Shown one piece after another: positions 42,332-53,108 of a DNA stretch of 64,000 nucleotides. This DNA comes from a virus, in IMG/VR virus record IMGVR_UViG_3300045988_109366, positions 64,001 to 128,000 of that record; one strand, given 5' to 3'. The number at the start of each line of letters is the position of its first letter. The stretch's first letter is position 1. The position numbers were made by a program, and so were the translations under genes. The notes beneath the pieces were generated by a model. The model did no database searches, was not told the origin of the DNA, and saw only the letters and a list, made by a program, of their open reading frames with translations.

Positions 42332-42875
42332 TATGGAAGATAAAGATATAAAAACAGAGATCAGGGATTATCTTAAAGAAGAGGCGGATACCCATATAAG
42401 GCATTGGATAGCCATAAAACGTGAGAGCAAGCGTCTGTATAGCGATATTGAGGATAGGACTAAGAAGATAGCCCTTAAATCATCTTCGTTGATAAAGGAG
42501 GAGGATTTTGTCGTTCTTCATGAGATGACCCATAAGATACAGATGTTGAATATAGAGGCTGTAAAAGTCAATTCTAGGTTGATGTTCATAATCCAGTTGG
42601 CTACTAGCTTCGGTATGGATCTGGATTTAGACACGACATATGCGTCCACCGCCAAGAGTATTATAGAAGACAGAACGTCTGGATTCGTGTTTTATGATGA
42701 CAAGGAACGTCTTAGATATGCTGACAAGGAGCTTGAGGATATGTTCCATGATATGAGTGTGACGGAAGTAAGTAAGATAGGTGTTGTTCAATCTTATGAG
42801 CTTCTTATGAAGCAGTATAACGAATTTAAGGAAATAAAGGCCAATGCCACAGGGAAGACGAAAGCCGACGAGTAA
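42315..42875 (+). CDS. hypothetical protein
   Basis: ORF track. Confidence 0.55.
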   Translation: MIIMRNMEDKDIKTEIRDYLKEEADTHIRHWIAIKRESKRLYSDIEDRTKKIALKSSSLIKEEDFVVLHEMTHKIQMLNIEAVKVNSRLMFIIQLATSFGMDLDLDTTYASTAKSIIEDRTSGFVFYDDKERLRYADKELEDMFHDMSVTEVSKIGVVQSYELLMKQYNEFKEIKANATGKTKADE

Positions 42876-43164
42876 GGATGTTGATCGGGTTAATGACAAT
42901 CTTGAGGTCATATCCAAGGCCGTGGATGATGCCAAGGCTTATATTGATAAGCATCCTTGGGACAAGGAGAAGCCGGAGGATATGGCAAGGGCATTTGACT
43001 TCATATCAAAATTAATCGATAAGATAAATACATGGAATGATTCTTATATGGAGAAAAGTGGGATCATGGATGTATATAGGTCTGTAAGCAATGTCCAGAA
43101 AAAGGAACGTAAGGGTCAGGTTTCTGGTGGAATCGAGTCTGTTTTAAAGGATATTATGAAATGA
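42844..43164 (+). CDS. hypothetical protein directly upstream of terL (small-terminase position, unproven)
   Basis: ORF track; 4-nt overlap with the terL start; position only. Confidence 0.45.
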   Translation: MPQGRRKPTSKDVDRVNDNLEVISKAVDDAKAYIDKHPWDKEKPEDMARAFDFISKLIDKINTWNDSYMEKSGIMDVYRSVSNVQKKERKGQVSGGIESVLKDIMK

Positions 43165-45950
43165 GTCTAAGTACGAGTCCAGAATTTTATGTAAACATGA
43201 AAAATCCTCCTGTATGGAACGATCTGTTCGGTTGGGAGGATCAGGATGACGATGTTAAGCAGTTCTTTAAGGAAGAGGCTTATAAGGTCAAGTACGGGGT
43301 GACTATCAATGGTACGTTCATCCCTCCATGGCTTTATTGGCATGTTAATTTCTTTCCCGTATTCCAGGATCTTCCAAACGGGGAACGTGTGCCAGCGATC
43401 AGTCGTTTGCGTGACAACGAATGGTTTTTCGCCGAGATGTACCAACGTGCCCGTCAGGAGAAGAAAGGGTTGGGGATGTTTGGTACTCGTCGTTTTGGCA
43501 AGGCTCTTCTGGACTCGGAGCTTATATACACTCCTTATGGTTCCAAGAAAATAGGATTCGCCGATATAGGAGATATCATATACGGTGATGACGGGAATCT
43601 TACTACCATAGTGGGCGTATATCCTCAGGGATTCGTTGATACGTACAAAGTGACCTTTGAGGACGGTCGCAGCGTGGTGTGTTGCGGGCAGCACCAGTGG
43701 AAAGTCAAGTATCATGGTGATTATAAGGTTATGAGCACTATTGGTATCATCCATTCTGACTTCTCCAAAATGACTATAGATATTGGGGAGGCGGTAGATT
43801 TCCCCGAGCGGCGGTGGCTGATATCGCCCCAGCTCATGGGGTCTCTGACCGCCTCTTTCCTTTGTGGCGCTACCGACAGGATCTTTGAGCTAAGCAATAA
43901 GGAGATGGATGATATTATTTATTCATCCAAAAAACAGAAAGAGTTGTTTATAAGCTCATTCATGAAGATAGCTTGCGGTATAAATACCGGTGACGATCGT
44001 TTTAAGGTCGTTTACAAAAGTGAGTATATTATATCATTCGTAAGAAGAATATTCTGGTCTATGGGATATTATTGCGTCATGGATGGTGATGATATGTATA
44101 TATCCAAGACCCATAATAGGCTTAGGATATCCGATATAGATTATTACGGGAAATATAAAGCTACTTGTATTGAGGTCGATAATAAGTCCCATCAGTTTCT
44201 TACCACCAATTTTGTCGTATCCCATAATACGACTATCATGTCATCCCTTCTTCAGATGAACGCTACCATGACGATCGGGCTTAGTCATTCCGTGGTAGGT
44301 TTCAGCGATAGCGATTTATCTAATATAGGTGAGTATTGTGAGTATGGGCTTGATCATGTGCATCCTTTTTTCAGGATTAACAGGACCAAGACCGATTGGA
44401 GTTCTGGTGTCACCTTAGGCAAGCGTATGTCCAACGGGGTTCGTGATGTTCATGCCATAATATCCATAGCCAATATCAACATGGGTAGGAAGACATCCAC
44501 GCAGAAGACTGCCGGTCTGACCCCAGCCACGGCTATTTTCGACGAGGTAGGTAAGGGACCTATCAAGAAACCGTACACGGCCGCCATGCCGTCCTACGAC
44601 ACTCCTTATGGCTGGCGTCTCAGTCCTATCTTGGCCGGTACCGGTGGTGAGGTGGAACTATCCAAGGACGCTCAGGAGATGTTCTCTGATCCTGATACAT
44701 ACAATCTCCTGGTCATGGACTGGGATATTTTAAATCGGAGAGCCATGAAAGGGAAAACATGGAAAGAAAGGAAATGGGCGATGTTTGTCCCCGGTCAGAT
44801 GGCTAACTCCGGTGTTAAGAGAACTATAGGATTGGGCGATTATCTTGGTAAGCCTGATGACAAGAAGCTTAATAAGATCAAGATCGACGCTACTGATTTC
44901 GAGGCTAGTACCAATAAACTTAATGAGGAACGGAAGAAACTATCTACAAAAGATAGGGTTGCGTACACTTCTCATACCATGTTCTATCCATTTACGATTG
45001 ACGACTGTTTTTTAAGCTCATCCCAGAACCTATTCCCGGTCGAGTACGCTATCAAGCATAAGAATGATCTCCTTGAGTCGGGGCAATATAGCGGTATGCT
45101 GTGTGATGTCTTTCTTGAGTCAGGTAATAAACTGGGGACTACTAAATCGAATAAGCAACTGGCTGGATTCCCGTTTAGCGGCGGTGTTATTGACGCTCCT
45201 GTCCAGATATTCGAGATGCCTCAATCCAATAGGTTTGATGATTTTATTTATGTGGCGGGCCAAGATCCGTATAAGCAGGCCAAGTCTGATACTCCTTCAT
45301 TGGGATCCTTTTATATATTCAAAAGGCGTGTTGGTATCCGAGATCCTTATGCCTATAGAATAGTTGCCTCTTACGTATCCCGCCCATCATCTATAGACCA
45401 ATTCTGCCGTACGTGCGAGGTACTTCAGAAAGGATATGGTGCTATATGTCTTATGGAGAACGCTGACCAGATGTATGAGCAGTATCTTAACCGTAAAAGC
45501 GGTATGCCAGCGTCTTTCTTTCTGTTTGCTGGTGAGGCAATAGCCAATAAGTATGTGAAGGCCGGCTCCCGGCAGAACAGCAAGCTGGGGCTATACCCTA
45601 CCCCTGGCAACCAGAACCTGCTCTTCTCCTGCGTGGTGGATTATTGCTGGCAGGATTTCGTTATCGGTTATGATGATCAGATTGGTCTTGATATAACTGT
45701 CAAGGGTATTGAATTGATTGATGATATAGCCCTATTGGATGAGATAATACAGTACAAGCCCGGATTGAACGTCGATAGGATAATAGCCTTCGGGCATGCG
45801 TTGGTTCTCGCTAGGTATTTTGATGATAACAATTACATGCCTAAATCGAAGATCGAGGAGATGAATAACGCCCGTAAGGAAGACGCTTATAAACACCATG
45901 AGGTATATGCCTCTGCCTTTGGATCGGTATCTATAGGTGCGTTTCGGTAG
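43161..45950 (+). CDS. terL: terminase large subunit, interrupted by an intein
   Basis: Removing aa 115-356 restores the P-loop GTRRFGK|TTIMSS (GxxxxGKT). Walker B is TAIFDEVGK. Large ATPase+nuclease-size extein (687 aa), located upstream of the portal candidate. Confidence 0.8.
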   Translation: MSLSTSPEFYVNMKNPPVWNDLFGWEDQDDDVKQFFKEEAYKVKYGVTINGTFIPPWLYWHVNFFPVFQDLPNGERVPAISRLRDNEWFFAEMYQRARQEKKGLGMFGTRRFGKALLDSELIYTPYGSKKIGFADIGDIIYGDDGNLTTIVGVYPQGFVDTYKVTFEDGRSVVCCGQHQWKVKYHGDYKVMSTIGIIHSDFSKMTIDIGEAVDFPERRWLISPQLMGSLTASFLCGATDRIFELSNKEMDDIIYSSKKQKELFISSFMKIACGINTGDDRFKVVYKSEYIISFVRRIFWSMGYYCVMDGDDMYISKTHNRLRISDIDYYGKYKATCIEVDNKSHQFLTTNFVVSHNTTIMSSLLQMNATMTIGLSHSVVGFSDSDLSNIGEYCEYGLDHVHPFFRINRTKTDWSSGVTLGKRMSNGVRDVHAIISIANINMGRKTSTQKTAGLTPATAIFDEVGKGPIKKPYTAAMPSYDTPYGWRLSPILAGTGGEVELSKDAQEMFSDPDTYNLLVMDWDILNRRAMKGKTWKERKWAMFVPGQMANSGVKRTIGLGDYLGKPDDKKLNKIKIDATDFEASTNKLNEERKKLSTKDRVAYTSHTMFYPFTIDDCFLSSSQNLFPVEYAIKHKNDLLESGQYSGMLCDVFLESGNKLGTTKSNKQLAGFPFSGGVIDAPVQIFEMPQSNRFDDFIYVAGQDPYKQAKSDTPSLGSFYIFKRRVGIRDPYAYRIVASYVSRPSSIDQFCRTCEVLQKGYGAICLMENADQMYEQYLNRKSGMPASFFLFAGEAIANKYVKAGSRQNSKLGLYPTPGNQNLLFSCVVDYCWQDFVIGYDDQIGLDITVKGIELIDDIALLDEIIQYKPGLNVDRIIAFGHALVLARYFDDNNYMPKSKIEEMNNARKEDAYKHHEVYASAFGSVSIGAFR
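43503..44228 (+). mobile_element. intein (242 aa) inserted in the TerL Walker A motif
   Basis: Block A-like ALLDSELIYT (Ala at position 1), block B-like CGQHQW, block F-like KATCIEVDN..HQF, terminal VVSHN followed by Thr +1. Confidence 0.7.
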
Positions 45951-47331
45951 TTTATGGTATATTTATAATACTGGCAGATAGTTTAATACTTTCATGCCTT
46001 ACATTTTTTCATCTTTGAATATTTAAATTAAAATATAGTGCATTATGTTAATATCTTATAAATATAGAATTTATCCGACAGAAGAACAGAAGGTTTTGTT
46101 TGCCAAGACTTTCGGATGCTGCCGTTTTGTCTATAACTGGGCACTCAACCTAAAGATTGAAGCATATAAGCAGGGAAAGAAGTCCGTATCATACAAGGAA
46201 GTGCAGGATCGGATGGTAAACGAGCTGAAAAAGGAGAATAAATGGCTGGCCGAGGTTAATTCGCAATCTCTTCTTAATTCTATCCGCAATCTTGATGCCG
46301 CCTATAAAAACTTCTTTCGTGATACTCATGCAATGGGGTTCCCACGTTTCAAGAGTCGAAAGAATAAGCAAAGTTTTCAATGTCCGCAACATTGTAGCGT
46401 GGACTTTATCAATGAGACCATTTCCATACCCAAGGCAAAAGATATTCCTGCCGTGCTGCATCGCAAGTTCAAAGGTACGGTGAAAACCGTCACCGTCAGC
46501 ATGACACCTTCGGGCAAATACTTTGCTTCCGTATTGGTTGATACGGCTATCCATGAACTTCCGGCAATGACCATACAAGGTGATACGACTTTGGGTATAG
46601 ACTTGGGTATCAAATCTCTTGCCGTATGTTCTGATGGACGCACGTTTGACAATCCCAAAAACTTGAAGAGAAATCTTGATCGCTTGAAGTTTTTGCAAAA
46701 GCGGTTGAGCCGCAAACAGAAAGGATCATCCAACCGTAACAGGGAGCGTATTAAGGTTGCCAAATTACAGGAACACATAGCCAACAGACGTAGGGACAAT
46801 CTTCATAAAATCACTTATGCGCTGACACACGATAGCCAAGTGCGTACCATCTGCATGGAGGATTTGAACGTGAAAGGAATGCAGCGTAACCATCACCTTG
46901 CACAGGCGGTCGGTGATGCTTCTTTCGGTATGTTCCTGACGATGCTTGAATACAAGTGCAGGTGGTATGGTGTGAACCTCATAAAGATAGACCGATTTGC
47001 TCCGAGTTCGAAGACCTGCGGCAAATGTGGATATATCTATAAAGGATTGAAATTGAACGAGCGAAAATGGACTTGCCCGGAATGTGGCACACATCACGAC
47101 CGGGATTTCAATGCCGCTTGCAATATCAAGGAATTTGGCTTGAAAGCCCTACCCACGGAGCGTGGGAAAGTCAAGCCTGTGGACTGTCCTCTTGTGGATG
47201 ATAGACCTCGTGTCCTAAAAAGCAATGGCAGGAAGAAGCAGGAAAAGGAAGTAGATGATATTTCTATACACTCATGTTTTAGGCGCGAGAAGCTCACTAA
47301 CTTATCTTTGCTAAAAAATAATTAGATTGAC
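45951..47331 (+). mobile_element. tnpB-only IS200/IS605-like element filling the terL-portal intergenic space (ends not mapped)
   Basis: tnpB plus 94 nt upstream and 6 nt downstream occupy the whole gap between the terL stop (45950) and the portal ATG (47332). Confidence 0.5.
46045..47325 (+). CDS. tnpB: TnpB (IS200/IS605-family RNA-guided nuclease), catalytic residues intact
   Basis: MLISYKYRIYPTEEQ N-terminus, RuvC-I GIDLGIKSLAV, RuvC-II ICMEDLNVKGM, Zn finger CGKCG..CPECG, RuvC-III DRDFNAACNI. Confidence 0.9.
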   Translation: MLISYKYRIYPTEEQKVLFAKTFGCCRFVYNWALNLKIEAYKQGKKSVSYKEVQDRMVNELKKENKWLAEVNSQSLLNSIRNLDAAYKNFFRDTHAMGFPRFKSRKNKQSFQCPQHCSVDFINETISIPKAKDIPAVLHRKFKGTVKTVTVSMTPSGKYFASVLVDTAIHELPAMTIQGDTTLGIDLGIKSLAVCSDGRTFDNPKNLKRNLDRLKFLQKRLSRKQKGSSNRNRERIKVAKLQEHIANRRRDNLHKITYALTHDSQVRTICMEDLNVKGMQRNHHLAQAVGDASFGMFLTMLEYKCRWYGVNLIKIDRFAPSSKTCGKCGYIYKGLKLNERKWTCPECGTHHDRDFNAACNIKEFGLKALPTERGKVKPVDCPLVDDRPRVLKSNGRKKQEKEVDDISIHSCFRREKLTNLSLLKNN

Positions 47332-50094
47332 ATGGAGATTTTCAATAGAGATCATTCGTTTCCAGCAAAAGGAGCGTTATTAGGATTACCTCCTCAAGCT
47401 ATTTCCACGAAGAAAAAGAACAGGAAGTGGAAAGAGGATTGTATGGACGCTCTTGAGACGATAGGATTGAAACAGTATGATCGCAACCAGATGTACCGTG
47501 ACTATTATCTAATGGCGGATGGTAAGTTATCTTTTATGGAGATGGCGGATGTCATCCCTCAGCTAAGGAACGTACAGAAGTTAAGGAGTGATATAAGGAT
47601 ACCCTCTTTCTTGAAGCATTATGATATCATAGGTGGTATTGTAAACGCTTTTGAGGGATGGCTGACAAACCTACAGGATAAGTATACGGTTAACGAGGTA
47701 GGGGATATGGCTATAAGTGAGTATGAGGATACGATGTCAAACTTACTTCATCGTCATATACAAGAACAGTGGGATATTATCGTTAATCAGCGTCTTGTGG
47801 AGGCAGGACTTGATCCTACATACAATGAGTTCAACTCCGAGGAGGAACGTCAGGCTTACGCAGATCAAATACAACAGGCCAAGGCGTCTATGACCCCTGA
47901 TGATATCCAGAGGTTCATGAGTACAAGATGGAAGACGCAGGCGGCAGTATGGGGGGATCATACGATCGAGGCTGACCGTAGCCGGTTTTATATGGATGAG
48001 CTTGACAGGGAGAATTTCCGGGATCGTCTTCTTAGTGGAAAGATGTTCCGTAATCATTTCGTTGGCTTCGACTACTATCGTCCGGAGGTATGGAGTCCGA
48101 TGGAGGTATTCCATCCTGACGTGAAATACCCGCAATACGGATCTTATGTGGGCCGTATTCATTATTACGAGGGTGTTGAGCTGATATCAAGATACGGCCA
48201 TAAGATGACGGCCAAGGACAAGCGTCGTATTATGGGCGGTGATGATGATTATGAGGGATGGGTATCTAATGACGGTACTAGGTATGATCAGAAGAAAAAG
48301 AAGCCGTCTATTACCGGTATGTACGAGAATGAGGTTATTCCATGGAAAGGATACCATGATTATGAGTCTATAGTCGCCGCTGAGGACTATTATGGTGTTC
48401 CGATGGGCGAGTACCACACCTTCGGGCCGGACGGGGAGGAACACACCCAGCCCCGCTTCTTGCCCCGCTTCCATCCATTTGGCTATTTTAACTCTGACAT
48501 GTCCAATGGCAAGAGATATGAGATAGACTCTCGCCTTTTTAGGGTAATGGAAGGATATTGGGTATCCATGAAACCGGTATTCTTAATAACTTACATGACG
48601 GATACCGGTATGGTAGATCAGGAGCTTGTTACCGACGAGCTTCTCCCGGAGTTCTTGGAGAAGAACGGTATCAAGAAAGTGAAGAGGGTTATGGCTGAAG
48701 CCGTCAGTGATCCTGAGGTGAACACCTATATCTTGGAGTATGTTCCTGAGGTTAGGTTTGGCGTTAAGATCACCGGAGGTAATTTAATGGATAAACCTAT
48801 ATATATTGGTGGGGATCCAATACCTCATCAGATACATGGTGACAGCAGTCTGTATGATTATGTCATTCCGGTTTCGGGATTTATAGGGGCTAGTCTCGCT
48901 GATCGCATACAGCCGTTCCAGATGATGTATAACCTTGCCATGAACCAGCTATACAATAACGCCGAGAAGGAGATCGGTAAGTTCTTCTTAGGCGACTTAG
49001 GATTCCTGCCTACGGAATATAAGGATATGATGGACAAGAAGGGAGCTTTGGCTACTTTTATGCAGATTGTTAAGTCCGTCTCATTTATGGGTGTAGGTGG
49101 TAATGACACAAACAATCCTTACCAGAATCCGCAGATGAGCAGCATATATAATCAGTTCGGTGTATATGATCTTACTAATACGGATCAGATAAGATCCCGT
49201 ATGGAAATGGCGTCTTACGCCTATATGATGGCTTATAGGATGATAGGTATATCCGAGCAAGCGATGGGTCAGTCAACTAGATACGAGAGTTCTACGGGCG
49301 TAAAACAGGGAGTTAACGCTACTATGCTACAGACCCAGACTTACTTTAATGATTTCGATGACTTCAAGAAACGGACATTGGATATTCATCTAGCCGTGGC
49401 TCAAGTATGCCAGAAGGAAGGATACGATTGGACCGTGATGTACAGGAACAGCGATCTATCCTTGGCTTACGTCAGTCTTACGGATAATAGCTTGTCGTTA
49501 CGTCATCTTAATGTTATGGCTGTCTCTAATTCCAAGAAACGTCTGGAATTGGAGAATTTGAAGCAATATATATTACAGACAAATACGTTAGGTAATGACT
49601 TGCTTGATATCACTAGAATGATGAATGCCAACTCAACGGCTGAGATGAATCAGATAGGAAGGGATGCCAGATCTTACGCAGATCGTGTAAGACAGGAGGA
49701 GTACCAGAATCAACAACGACTTGTACAGCAAAAAGCCGAGGCCGATCAACAGGCCCGTAATGACGAGCATGAGAAGGAGAAGGAGCTGGCTTATATCAAG
49801 GGTAACTTCGATTTACGGGGTAAGAGCATAATGGCCGCCGGTCAAGCGGCTAGGACACAAGATAACGCAGAGGGTATGGATTATGTGGAAGCTATAGCGG
49901 ATCGAGCCTTGAAGGAAAGGGATCTGGATATCCGTGAGGAGGATATGAGAACCAGACAGGCTAATGCCGAGGCTGAGCGAAGATCTCGTGAGGAGATAGA
50001 GAAAAGGAAGTTGGAATTAAAGGAAAAGGAGATAGACGCTAGAAACAAACGTTCTGATACAGATAGGTTTACGTCAATAATAAACAAGAATTGA
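47332..50094 (+). CDS. portal protein candidate
   Basis: 920-aa ORF next after terL (ignoring the IS), with a long charged coiled-coil C-terminus. The call rests on position and size only. Confidence 0.5.
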   Translation: MEIFNRDHSFPAKGALLGLPPQAISTKKKNRKWKEDCMDALETIGLKQYDRNQMYRDYYLMADGKLSFMEMADVIPQLRNVQKLRSDIRIPSFLKHYDIIGGIVNAFEGWLTNLQDKYTVNEVGDMAISEYEDTMSNLLHRHIQEQWDIIVNQRLVEAGLDPTYNEFNSEEERQAYADQIQQAKASMTPDDIQRFMSTRWKTQAAVWGDHTIEADRSRFYMDELDRENFRDRLLSGKMFRNHFVGFDYYRPEVWSPMEVFHPDVKYPQYGSYVGRIHYYEGVELISRYGHKMTAKDKRRIMGGDDDYEGWVSNDGTRYDQKKKKPSITGMYENEVIPWKGYHDYESIVAAEDYYGVPMGEYHTFGPDGEEHTQPRFLPRFHPFGYFNSDMSNGKRYEIDSRLFRVMEGYWVSMKPVFLITYMTDTGMVDQELVTDELLPEFLEKNGIKKVKRVMAEAVSDPEVNTYILEYVPEVRFGVKITGGNLMDKPIYIGGDPIPHQIHGDSSLYDYVIPVSGFIGASLADRIQPFQMMYNLAMNQLYNNAEKEIGKFFLGDLGFLPTEYKDMMDKKGALATFMQIVKSVSFMGVGGNDTNNPYQNPQMSSIYNQFGVYDLTNTDQIRSRMEMASYAYMMAYRMIGISEQAMGQSTRYESSTGVKQGVNATMLQTQTYFNDFDDFKKRTLDIHLAVAQVCQKEGYDWTVMYRNSDLSLAYVSLTDNSLSLRHLNVMAVSNSKKRLELENLKQYILQTNTLGNDLLDITRMMNANSTAEMNQIGRDARSYADRVRQEEYQNQQRLVQQKAEADQQARNDEHEKEKELAYIKGNFDLRGKSIMAAGQAARTQDNAEGMDYVEAIADRALKERDLDIREEDMRTRQANAEAERRSREEIEKRKLELKEKEIDARNKRSDTDRFTSIINKN

Positions 50095-51398: not shown

Positions 51399-53108
51399 TT
51401 GAAAATGAATCCGTTTCTTACAAAAAGTTTCCCGGCTACCGTGAATGGCGATAACGTTATTGCCTTTACCGATGCCAAGAACTATAAGACTTCGCTTGTA
51501 GAGCATAACTTAGGCTCATTGGCGAGCTGGTATTATGAGGATCCTGACAAGAATCATCTGGGTCTGTTGAATCTGTTCTCTAATATCGCTAATTACCCTG
51601 TACCGATGTATATGGGTATGATTAATAACGGCGCTACGATCTCCGTTAACGGTATTGGAGCTTCTTTCCGTTATGATCTTCCTGTTACAAAGACATTCGC
51701 TGTCGTTACGGCAGAGGATACTTCAGGTCATCACCTGAAACCGGGTATTGATGGTAGCTTGTTTGATATCGTTTTGAATACATCTGAGTTTACGGCTTAT
51801 GATGTTATTACCTACGATGCTGCTAACGGTTGTAATATCCTTATCTCAGGTGAGATCCCGTCTAAGACAGAAGGTGACTTGACACGTTATTGGTGTCGTG
51901 TTATCGGCGGTAAGGCTAAATACTTCCCCAAAGAGAAACTACGCCCTGGTATCCGTTACTGGAAGATCGGTCATGCTTTAGGTGAGTACAGCACTCAGTT
52001 CTCCAAGGTATCTGGAGCCGATAAGGCCGGTTCCATGACCTGTGAGTTCCGTTTAGGTAACCACCGTGGTGTTGAGGGCGAGACAACTATGTACGCTGGT
52101 ATGAAGTCCATGCAGGCCGCCCAGAATAGCACTTCAGAGTTCGTGGAGACTGCCCTTCGTCGTATGAATGCCATGAGAAGCGAGTATGAGGGTAATATTC
52201 CTGATTTGGCTATTATCGGTAGGACGGTTAATGGTAGACTTGATTTACGTACGGCTAAGGTAGCGTCCACGCTGGAGGTATTCTGTATGGCTGAGTTGGT
52301 TAAGCTGGAAGCTAGACAGTTGATGTGGCAAGAAGGTGGTATTATTATGGATCAAAATGGTCCTATCCATTTGAATGAGGGTATCTACCGTCAGCTTCGC
52401 CGTGGTTACACTATCTACTATAGCCGTCCGATGGGTATTACTAAGGATACGCTTATGGCTGCCGCAGCTTATATTTTCCGTGGACGTCAGGATCTTCCTA
52501 TTACGGAACGTAAGATTAAGTTCAAGGTAGGAGCTATGGCTATGATCAATTTAGAGAAGTTGATCAGGGAATCGTTCTTCACTACCTTGCAGAACTTAAG
52601 CTGGGGTATGGGAAGCGATAGGATGTTGCCTTCTAATCCTATTTCAGGTACTAACGACGCCATGATCTTAGGTCCGGTTCAGGTTAAGGGAGCTTTCATC
52701 CCGGGCATCGGTAATGTTGAGTTCGAGCACGATCCTTCTTTGGATTACGCTGACATGACAGATCGTAGCGAGTTAGTGAATGGCATGTATCCTAGATCAT
52801 CTTATTCTTGTATTATCGAGAATATCACTGACGCTGGATCAACTAACGCATATTCCGCTATTCCTAATACGGCTAACGCTAAGTTAGGTAATATGAATAA
52901 CAACGTATTCTATATCAAACCAGAAGGCGTAAGCATGTGGTGGGGTTATGAGTACGGTCGTTGGGCGCACAAAGCTAACGGTAATGAGATCGTATCATCC
53001 TTGCCGGGCATGAAAGAGCAATTCTGGTGTCATTCTGCTTCCGCAGCATGGGTTATGGATAATAGTAAGTTCTTGATTATCGAGCTTCAACCGAACTACT
53101 TCGGCTAA
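51399..53108 (+). CDS. major capsid protein candidate
   Basis: 569 aa; follows the scaffold-like ORF and is followed by the strongest stem-loop/T-run terminator in the window. Position-based call. Confidence 0.5.
   Translation: MKMNPFLTKSFPATVNGDNVIAFTDAKNYKTSLVEHNLGSLASWYYEDPDKNHLGLLNLFSNIANYPVPMYMGMINNGATISVNGIGASFRYDLPVTKTFAVVTAEDTSGHHLKPGIDGSLFDIVLNTSEFTAYDVITYDAANGCNILISGEIPSKTEGDLTRYWCRVIGGKAKYFPKEKLRPGIRYWKIGHALGEYSTQFSKVSGADKAGSMTCEFRLGNHRGVEGETTMYAGMKSMQAAQNSTSEFVETALRRMNAMRSEYEGNIPDLAIIGRTVNGRLDLRTAKVASTLEVFCMAELVKLEARQLMWQEGGIIMDQNGPIHLNEGIYRQLRRGYTIYYSRPMGITKDTLMAAAAYIFRGRQDLPITERKIKFKVGAMAMINLEKLIRESFFTTLQNLSWGMGSDRMLPSNPISGTNDAMILGPVQVKGAFIPGIGNVEFEHDPSLDYADMTDRSELVNGMYPRSSYSCIIENITDAGSTNAYSAIPNTANAKLGNMNNNVFYIKPEGVSMWWGYEYGRWAHKANGNEIVSSLPGMKEQFWCHSASAAWVMDNSKFLIIELQPNYFG

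What the first reader, a model, noticed from the sequence alone, without database searches (positions are those of the whole stretch)
43503..44228. Intein without an N-terminal nucleophile (class-3-like) in the TerL P-loop
TerL is 929 aa. Residues 115-356 begin ALLDSELIYT (block A, with Ala instead of Cys/Ser) and end VVSHN, followed by Thr. Excision yields a perfect Walker A, GTRRFGK-TTIMSS. The block B-like CGQHQW places Trp two residues after the His, and the block F-like KATCIEVD places Cys where standard inteins have Asp. Together with the Ser preceding the terminal His-Asn, this resembles the W-C-T signature of class 3 inteins, in which the block F Cys attacks the N-terminal junction. 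The central ~100 aa has no LAGLIDADG or HNH motif that I can recognise, so it may be a degenerate or novel endonuclease or linker.
Basis: partly seen in the sequence, partly recalled or inferred. Interest (0 to 1): 0.7.

Follow-up and report, generated by a model that had tools for sequence, protein, structure and literature searches.

The report
Class 3 intein in phage terminase
The DNA-packaging enzyme of this very common human-gut phage is interrupted, in the middle of its ATP-binding loop, by a self-excising protein element (an intein) of the known "class 3" type; this is a correct call and a new example of a known kind, not a new mechanism.

Summary
ORF 43161-45950 encodes a 929-aa large terminase (TerL). 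Residues 115-356 (nt 43503-44228) are a 242-aa insert, Ala1...Ser-His-Asn|Thr, placed between the Lys and Thr of Walker A (GTRRFGK|T). TerLs of Cellulophaga phages phi17:2/phi4:1 and Leptolyngbya phage Lbo-JY46 lack precisely this segment.

The insert is an intein of the class 3 (Trp-Cys-Thr, WCT) family. It matches solved inteins by sequence, including the class 3 Msm DnaB intein. Its AlphaFold model (pLDDT 96) hits only inteins in Foldseek. In 194 related inteins, H(B:10)-W(B:12)-C(F:4)-T(G:5)-H-N plus Thr/Ser(+1) is nearly invariant. The only departure here is Ser for Thr at G:5, which keeps the hydroxyl and is fixed in 80/80 related phage contigs.

The central ~130 aa is a cut-down LAGLIDADG homing-endonuclease remnant. 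It is homologous to the second half-domain of PI-SceI, and both catalytic acids are replaced. It is still under purifying selection.

The phage is an Epsilon-group crAss-like gut phage. Its closest named relative, crAssE-Sib, carries the same unannotated intein. Splicing was not tested here.

The parts
43161..45950 (+). TerL precursor ORF (929 aa, 105.5 kDa calculated). Its ATG overlaps the stop of the upstream 106-aa ORF, whose counterpart in crAssE-Sib is annotated as a putative small terminase.
   Evidence: PHROG phrog_6681 terminase large subunit 6e-68
43161..43502 (+). N-extein (aa 1-114), ending in the Walker A residues GTRRFGK
43503..44228 (+). Intein, 242 aa (27.7 kDa calculated), Ala1 to Asn242
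43503..43727 (+). N-terminal Hint subdomain (intein aa 1-75) with block A (Ala1, 43503-05) and block B (Cys60-Cys61, His64 at 43692-94, Trp66 at 43698-700)
   Evidence: Aligned to the gp41-1 and Msm DnaBi1 inteins. His and Trp are invariant in alignment A2 and in 80/80 loci.
43728..44117 (+). Central domain (intein aa 76-205), a degenerate LAGLIDADG-derived remnant. It consists of a first motif helix (LMGSLTASF) without its own beta-sheet lobe, plus a second half-domain (IIYSSKKQKELFISSFMKIAC ... FWSMGYY). The catalytic acidic positions are replaced by Ser/Phe and by Ala.
   Evidence: The profile of this region hits PI-SceI residues 301-372 at E=4e-5, and also PI-PkoII and PI-PfuI. Pfam LAGLIDADG_3 and Hom_end hit 4 of 29 aligned relatives each. 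Alignment. Foldseek on this domain alone was not significant.
44118..44228 (+). C-terminal Hint subdomain (intein aa 206-242) with block F (Cys222 at 44166-68, Asp226, His230, Phe232) and block G (Ser240 at 44220-22, His241, Asn242 at 44226-28)
   Evidence: The spacing C/+4 D/+8 H/+10 F equals that of Cys320/Asp324/His328/Phe330 in the Bethlehem DnaB intein (PMC2807308).
44229..45947 (+). C-extein (aa 357-929), starting with Thr+1 (44229-31), the Walker A Thr and predicted second nucleophile

Best explanation
Nt 43503-44228 encode a 242-aa class 3 intein inserted between Lys114 and Thr357 of the TerL Walker A motif (the 'classic' GK|T P-loop site). The 105.5-kDa precursor cannot have an intact P-loop, so TerL must be matured by protein splicing.

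Inferred mechanism, by homology with class 3 inteins that have been characterised experimentally:
(1) Cys222 (block F:4) is activated by His64 (B:10), with Trp66 (B:12) packing beside it and the hydroxyl of Ser240 (G:5) standing in for the usual Thr. Cys222 attacks the Lys114-Ala115 peptide bond and carries the N-extein as a thioester branch.
(2) The N-extein is passed to the hydroxyl of Thr+1.
(3) Asn242 cyclises and releases the intein.
(4) An O-to-N acyl shift yields a 687-aa (77.8-kDa) TerL with GTRRFGKT restored.

The central ~130 aa is a remnant of a LAGLIDADG homing endonuclease. It has lost one lobe and both catalytic acids, so the element is probably no longer mobile and is inherited vertically with TerL.

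Shown here: sequence, homology, predicted fold, precise absence from homologues, conservation and selection. Inferred: splicing, the order of its chemical steps, and endonuclease inactivity.
For: The coordinates and motifs are exact.

Removing the insert turns two PHROG TerL matches into one continuous match (1e-73).

The TerLs of Cellulophaga phi17:2 and Leptolyngbya Lbo-JY46 align across the gap with no residue missing or added (RRLFK|ST, RRLAK|TQ).

Sequence matches to solved inteins include the class 3 Msm DnaBi1 (6bs8), with HQW and C-[IV]-EVDN aligned.

In the top 150 representative proteins, 194 related inteins are almost uniformly H-W-C-T-H-N followed by T/S. Position 1 is Ala in 33 of the 44 where it is reliably placed, and -2/-1 is GK in 31 of those 44.

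The AF2 model has pLDDT 96.2. All top Foldseek PDB hits are inteins; 6bs8 and 6rix (class 3) give TM about 0.82 normalised to the target.

All 12 key residues checked are invariant and the intein is uninterrupted in 80/80 IMG/VR loci. pN/pS is 0.049 for the Hint parts against 0.028 for the extein, at pS about 0.3.

From the literature: the definition and mechanism of class 3 inteins, and their preference for the P-loops of helicase-like ATPases including TerL, are in PMC2807308. The GK|T site in mycobacteriophage TerL and demonstrated splicing of TerL inteins are in PMC5050341. The Cys-His-Thr triad, in which the G:5 hydroxyl partners His, is in PMC7664689.
Against: No experiment here shows splicing.

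G:5 is Ser rather than the signature Thr. Thr339Ala in the prototype intein caused temperature-dependent splicing, and no data on Thr-to-Ser were found.

Grafting WCT onto a class 1 intein did not give splicing (PMC7664689), so the motif alone is not sufficient.

Pfam models do not recognise the insert at the curated threshold.

Coordinates of the AF2 model were not available, so active-site distances could not be measured.
Confidence: 0.85

Rival explanations
1. The insert is a dead intein or a permanently retained insertion domain. It never excises, and TerL either works with the insert in place or another protein supplies the ATPase.
For: Splicing is untested. G:5 departs from the signature. 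A WDT-type class 3-like intein is known to be a pseudogene (PMC3196547, listed). The homing endonuclease is degenerate.
Against: The insert separates the Walker A Lys from the Thr. All splicing residues (A1, H64, W66, C222, D226, H230, F232, S240, H241, N242, T+1) are invariant in 80/80 contigs, even though synonymous divergence is about 0.3. pN/pS of the Hint parts is 0.049. The phage is very abundant (>8000 near-identical protein clusters), so its single TerL must work.
Confidence: 0.04
2. The intein splices by the class 2 (KlbA-like) route. [quoted passage not shown]
For: Like class 2 inteins, it begins with Ala.
Against: Class 2 inteins have Asp at F:4 and Cys+1 and lack the WCT covariation (PMC2807308). 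Here F:4 is Cys, B:12 is Trp and +1 is Thr. The closest sequence and fold relatives include the experimentally proven class 3 Msm DnaB-1 intein (PMC5222942). In tested class 3 inteins Ser+1 or Thr+1 could not start the reaction.
Confidence: 0.03
3. The central domain is still an active (minimal or dimerising) homing endonuclease, so the intein is currently mobile.
For: The central domain is under purifying selection (pN/pS 0.11). The same half-sized architecture recurs in about 40 diverse class 3 inteins. Some of these, such as the intein in P0200, keep acidic residues in both motifs.
Against: In this phage both catalytic acidic positions are replaced (LMGSLTASF; FISSFMKIAC against PI-SceI FLAGLIDSDG). 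One beta-sheet lobe is missing. No intein-less allele was found in IMG/VR against 409 intein-bearing relatives. Intein divergence tracks extein divergence among TerL homologues, as expected for vertical descent. GC and GC3 are close to those of the extein.
Confidence: 0.07

Closest known systems
Class 3 (WCT) inteins: prototype mycobacteriophage Bethlehem DnaB intein; solved structures Msm DnaBi1 (6bs8) and MchDnaB1 (6rix)
   Same: No N-terminal nucleophile. His B:10 and Trp B:12. Cys F:4 with the same Asp/His/Phe spacing in block F. His-Asn at the C-terminus. Thr+1. Insertion in a P-loop after GK. HINT fold (TM about 0.82 to 6bs8 and 6rix).
   Different: G:5 is Ser instead of Thr (2 of 194 relatives). 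The intein carries a half-sized LAGLIDADG remnant, whereas the solved class 3 inteins are mini-inteins and the Bethlehem DnaB intein is full-sized. The host is a crAss-like phage of Bacteroidota-type hosts, not an actinobacteriophage.
Mycobacteriophage TerL1-a P-loop inteins (Kelley et al. 2016, PMC5050341)
   Same: An intein between the invariant Walker A Lys and the nucleophilic Thr of a large terminase. In that study, five representative TerL inteins from other insertion sites (b, c, e, f, g) were shown to splice.
   Different: The TerL family is unrelated at sequence level (phrog_6681, crAss-like). Sequences were not compared directly here. The endonuclease in this intein is degenerate, whereas BAKA and Bethlehem TerL inteins have active LAGLIDADG domains.
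TerL intein of phage crAssE-Sib (OR575929, 'csAssE-Sib') and other Epsilon crAss-like TerLs (P0122-P0134)
   Same: Same insertion site, same 241-248 aa architecture, 35-46% identical inteins in 44-53% identical exteins. These are orthologous alleles.
   Different: All of them have the canonical Thr at G:5. The crAssE-Sib record annotates only 'terminase large subunit', and the paper describing it never uses the word intein.
PI-SceI / PI-PfuI / PI-PkoII LAGLIDADG intein endonucleases
   Same: The central domain is homologous to their second LAGLIDADG half-domain (K-IP...R..LL.GL.D.DG...RSLG), at E=4e-5. The whole model aligns to PI-SceI with TM 0.71 normalised to the query.
   Different: The first lobe and the DNA-recognition region are missing, and both catalytic Asp equivalents are replaced. 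It is probably not a nuclease.

Membership tests
Intein (HINT-fold protein-splicing domain) | HINT fold with blocks A, B, F and G | tested here: met
   AF2 pLDDT 96.2. The top 50 Foldseek PDB hits are inteins or related Hint domains (BIL2, hedgehog autoprocessing domain), from E=5e-9. phmmer against intein chains gives 2e-9.
Intein (HINT-fold protein-splicing domain) | In-frame insertion whose removal restores a conserved host motif, and which is absent from homologues | tested here: met
   GTRRFGK|T is restored. The insert is precisely absent in the TerLs of phi17:2, phi4:1 and Lbo-JY46. The extein alone gives a single continuous TerL PHROG match.
Intein (HINT-fold protein-splicing domain) | C-terminal His-Asn followed by a Ser/Thr/Cys +1 nucleophile | tested here: met
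   His241-Asn242|Thr357, invariant in 80/80 loci
Intein (HINT-fold protein-splicing domain) | Actual excision and extein ligation | not testable with these tools
   Needs expression or mass spectrometry.
Class 3 intein | No Cys/Ser/Thr at intein position 1 | tested here: met
   Ala1 (gct 43503-05), in 80/80 loci
Class 3 intein | Trp at block B position 12, two residues after His B:10 | tested here: met
   His64-Gln-Trp66, invariant columns in alignment A2
Class 3 intein | Cys at block F position 4 | tested here: met
   Cys222, aligned to the F:4 Cys of 6bs8. Present in 194/194 relatives.
Class 3 intein | Thr at block G position 5 (third member of the WCT triplet) | tested here: not met
   Ser240. 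Among relatives: Thr 191, Ser 2, Val 1 of 194. The substitution is conservative and keeps the hydroxyl proposed to partner His (PMC7664689), but the letter of the signature is not met.
Class 3 intein | Ser or Thr (rarely Cys) at +1 | tested here: met
   Thr+1. Among relatives: T 131, S 55, C 8.
Class 3 intein | Phylogenetic or sequence grouping with proven class 3 inteins | tested here: met
   The best PDB sequence matches include Msm DnaBi1 and MchDnaB1. The 150 best relatives carry the WCT signature. No tree was built.
Class 3 intein | Obligate F:4 Cys and a block F branched thioester intermediate | not testable with these tools
   Biochemical criterion (PMC2807308, PMC5222942).
LAGLIDADG homing endonuclease (intein-borne) | Sequence homology to LAGLIDADG domains | tested here: met
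   The profile of aa 76-205 hits PI-SceI 301-372 at E=4e-5. Pfam LAGLIDADG_3 and Hom_end hit aligned relatives.
LAGLIDADG homing endonuclease (intein-borne) | Two LAGLIDADG helices, each ending in a catalytic Asp or Glu | tested here: not met
   The equivalent positions are Ser/Phe (motif 1) and Ala (motif 2).
LAGLIDADG homing endonuclease (intein-borne) | Two alpha-beta-beta-alpha-beta-beta-alpha lobes forming a DNA-binding saddle | tested here: inconclusive
   The model shows only one lobe: helix 143-158, one strand 164-168 where a hairpin is expected, helix 174-186 and hairpin 190-201. A lone first helix (109-120) precedes it. Foldseek on the domain alone gave E>=0.17.

The most novel reading that the evidence does not exclude
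The ~240-aa 'one-lobed LAGLIDADG' architecture may not be a decaying relic. It recurs in dozens of class 3 inteins from unrelated P-loop proteins and is under purifying selection here (pN/pS 0.11). It could therefore be a stable, functional module, for example a DNA- or partner-binding domain, or a regulator of splicing. Together with the fixed Trp-Cys-Ser triad variant and the Cys60-Cys61 pair beside the catalytic His, it might time or condition TerL maturation in a dominant gut phage, for instance by redox state, as shown for the class 3 Msm DnaBi1 intein.
Probability: 0.1. Interest if true: 0.55.

Novelty: new member of a known kind. Interest (0 to 1): 0.3.

Why it matters
[quoted passage not shown] It is not annotated in the nearest public genome, and the paper describing that group does not mention it.

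The practical consequences are modest but real:
- TerL is the standard phylogenetic marker for these phages, and a 242-aa intein that evolves faster than the extein should be removed before trees are built.
- Annotation pipelines based on Pfam miss it.
- The natural Trp-Cys-Ser variant and the half-sized endonuclease remnant are convenient test cases for what the G:5 hydroxyl does and for how inteins shrink.

It does not change the understanding of protein splicing.

Tried and rejected
- Pfam on the whole TerL and on the insert gave nothing significant (only Hom_end_hint, E=0.023). This was rejected as evidence against an intein once PDB, PHROG and profile searches were positive.
- A degenerate DNA pattern for an intein-less RRFGK|TTIMS junction found nothing in IMG/VR. 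A looser pattern was judged too unspecific to run.
- Foldseek on the central domain alone was not significant. The LAGLIDADG assignment therefore rests on sequence profiles, not on fold.
- A six-frame scan of the window with the intein profile found no second intein.
- GC and GC3 of the intein against the extein showed no clear foreign signature.
- Active-site distances could not be measured because model coordinates are not exposed.
- A search for 'csAssE' in the literature found only unrelated papers. The phage is published as crAssE-Sib.
Full report
**Observation**

The window has a 929-aa ORF at 43161-45950 on the + strand. Translation confirms that residues 115-356 correspond exactly to nt 43503-44228. 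This segment begins ALLDSELIYT, ends FVVSHN and is followed by TTIMSS.

**The host protein is a large terminase**

The full protein hits PHROG phrog_6681 (terminase large subunit) in two stretches. With the insert removed it hits in one continuous stretch (1e-73, residues 20-672 on profile positions 79-749).

A tblastn search of the spliced sequence against GenBank phages finds three groups of relatives:
- phage 'csAssE-Sib' (OR575929; human gut, 151 kb, 51% identity);
- Cellulophaga phages phi17:2 and phi4:1 (35%);
- Leptolyngbya phage Lbo-JY46 (34%).

In the alignment, the Cellulophaga and Leptolyngbya TerLs run straight across the insertion point (…TRRLFK|STGL…, …ARRLAK|TQFI…), with not one residue extra or missing.

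**Is it an intein?**

Pfam does not see it. The only Hint-related match is Hom_end_hint at E=0.023, far below the cut-off. Other searches do see it:
- The insert matches PHROG families of intein-bearing terminases, DnaC-like loaders and primases.
- phmmer against PDB sequences gives the gp41-1 intein (2e-9), the class 3 Mycobacterium smegmatis DnaB intein 6bs8 (4e-6) and MchDnaB-1 (6e-5). 'HQW' and 'C-[IV]-EVDN..H..L' are aligned residue for residue with 6bs8.
- An exhaustive HMMER search of 1.84 billion representative proteins gives 7827 relatives at E<=1e-3.
- An AlphaFold2 model built on 29 aligned relatives has mean pLDDT 96.2 and pTM 0.92. Foldseek against the PDB returns inteins and related Hint domains for all top 50 hits. 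These include PI-SceI (5e-9, TM 0.71 normalised to the query) and the class 3 inteins 6bs8 and 6rix (about 1e-8, TM about 0.82 normalised to the target).

**Which class?**

I extracted 194 inteins from the 150 best representative proteins and read off the diagnostic positions.
- 191 of 194 have Thr at G:5.
- 194 of 194 have Cys at F:4.
- Nearly all have His B:10, Trp B:12 and His-Asn.
- +1 is Thr (131), Ser (55) or Cys (8).
- Where the alignment reaches the N-terminus reliably (44 inteins), position 1 is Ala in 33 and the preceding residues are Gly-Lys in 31.

This is the Trp-Cys-Thr signature that defines class 3 inteins. Tori et al. (PMC2807308) reported that the signature covaries with loss of the N-terminal nucleophile and with Thr/Ser+1. 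They also reported that such inteins sit in helicase-like ATPases, 'terminase large subunits of bacteriophage' included, mostly in the P-loop. Block F of the window's intein also reproduces the spacing of the prototype: Cys222/Asp226/His230/Phe232 against Cys320/Asp324/His328/Phe330.

The single departure is Ser240 at G:5. Only 2 of the 194 relatives have Ser, and one of those is the representative of this phage's own protein cluster. In the MchDnaB1 structures the G:5 Thr hydroxyl is proposed to complete a Cys-His-Thr triad (PMC7664689). Ser keeps that hydroxyl, so I infer that function is retained, but no Thr-to-Ser data were found.

**Is it maintained?**

The protein is extremely common. 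More than 8000 clusters of near-identical 929-aa copies exist in metagenomes, on contigs of about 150 kb. IMG/VR holds 409 relatives.
- In all 80 fetched loci the intein is 242 aa and uninterrupted. A1, C60, C61, H64, W66, C222, D226, H230, F232, S240, H241 and N242 are invariant.
- Synonymous divergence among these loci is large (pS about 0.3). Even so, pN/pS is 0.028 for the exteins, 0.049 for the two Hint parts and 0.11 for the central domain.
- No contig in IMG/VR carries the intein-less junction RRFGK|TTIMS.

The insert splits the Walker A Lys from the Thr, and the phage has a single TerL. These data are therefore hard to reconcile with a non-splicing relic.

**The central domain**

Intein sizes among the relatives fall into three groups: mini (138-154 aa), about 220-270 aa, and about 320-375 aa. 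The window's intein belongs to the middle group.

Alignment of 42 such inteins shows shared motifs between blocks B and F: …IPL..PV....DPY.LG…, IP..YLY.S...R..LL.GL.D..G, and ….RSLG. Four of 29 members reach Pfam LAGLIDADG_3, and four reach Hom_end. A profile of residues 76-205 matches PI-SceI residues 301-372, 'KNIPSFLSTDNIGTRETFLAGLIDSDGYV…LARSLG'. That is its second LAGLIDADG motif and lobe (E=4e-5). It also matches PI-PkoII and PI-PfuI.

The model has a first 'LAGLIDADG' helix (109-120) without its own sheet. It is followed by helix 143-158, strand 164-168, helix 174-186 and hairpin 190-201. That amounts to one lobe instead of two.

In this phage the catalytic acidic positions are Ser/Phe (LMGSLTASF) and Ala (FISSFMKIAC, against FLAGLIDSDG). 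Foldseek on a model of this domain alone was not significant: the best E was 0.17, with LAGLIDADG inteins only among weak hits. The assignment therefore rests on sequence profiles. I conclude that the domain is a degenerate, probably inactive, endonuclease remnant.

**History**

TerL homologues that are 30-53% identical in their exteins carry inteins at the same site. Intein identity tracks extein identity and stays somewhat lower (25-46%). This is consistent with long vertical co-descent. The same site also holds a 142-aa mini-intein (P0139) and a 338-aa large one (P0158). GC content of the intein is close to that of the exteins.

**Context**

- The neighbouring genes are portal (47332-50094) and a protein hitting the Crassvirus major capsid family (51399-53108).
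- Yutin et al. (PMC7886860) defined an Epsilon group of crAss-like phages with genomes of about 150 kb that includes Cellulophaga phi17:2. They noted TerL inteins in the Delta group, and intein-rich genomes in the Zeta group.
- The paper on Epsilon phages and crAssE-Sib (PMC11054128) contains no occurrence of 'intein' and uses TerL for phylogeny.

The intein therefore appears to be undescribed for this group, although it is a standard example of its class.

**Verdict**

This is a new member of a known kind (class 3 P-loop intein in a phage TerL), with two small peculiarities: Ser at G:5, and a one-lobed LAGLIDADG remnant under purifying selection. Splicing, the obligate role of Cys222 and the inactivity of the endonuclease remain inferences. 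The experiments that would settle them are listed under next steps. Calculated sizes are 105.5 kDa for the precursor, 77.8 kDa for ligated TerL and 27.7 kDa for the intein.

Noticed in passing
window 46045-47325 (+): A 426-aa TnpB / IS605 OrfB protein (Pfam HTH_OrfB_IS605, OrfB_IS605, Cas12f1-like_TNB) sits in the spacer between TerL and portal. In 78 of 80 near-identical IMG/VR loci, portal starts about 54 nt after TerL with no TnpB. L022 and L054 carry a different TnpB (47% identity) on the opposite strand in the same spacer. So this is a recent, strain-specific insertion, and the spacer may be a hot spot.
   Followed up: partly
window 47332-50094, 51399-53108; whole window: The window comes from an Epsilon-group crAss-like phage of about 150 kb. 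Portal follows TerL. ORF 51399-53108 hits the Crass_capsid family (5e-10). The nearest named genomes are crAssE-Sib (OR575929) and Cellulophaga phi17:2/phi4:1.
   Followed up: partly
window 43161-45947 compared with L004-L083: TerL proteins that are 97-99% identical differ at about 30% of synonymous sites (pS about 0.3, pN/pS 0.03). This indicates a deep, strongly constrained population rather than a recent clone.
   Followed up: no
window 43680-43685 (intein Cys60-Cys61, block B positions 6-7): A Cys-Cys pair lies three residues before the catalytic His. Position B:7 is Cys in 101 of 194 related class 3 inteins, where class 1 inteins usually have Thr. It could form a disulfide with the F:4 Cys, giving redox control like that reported for Msm DnaBi1. 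Distances could not be checked.
   Followed up: no
representative proteins P0139, P0143, P0130, P0129: Related TerLs carry a second class 3 intein in Walker B (…IIDE|ALEE… and …ILDE|ALEEN…, ending THN|CGK). Some other proteins hold two or three class 3 inteins, a few of them back to back. This window's TerL has none at its Walker B (AIFDEVGKG).
   Followed up: no
window 42844-43164 (+): A 106-aa ORF has a stop that overlaps the TerL start (ATGA). The gene in the same position in crAssE-Sib is annotated as a putative small terminase subunit. It has no Pfam hit.
   Followed up: no
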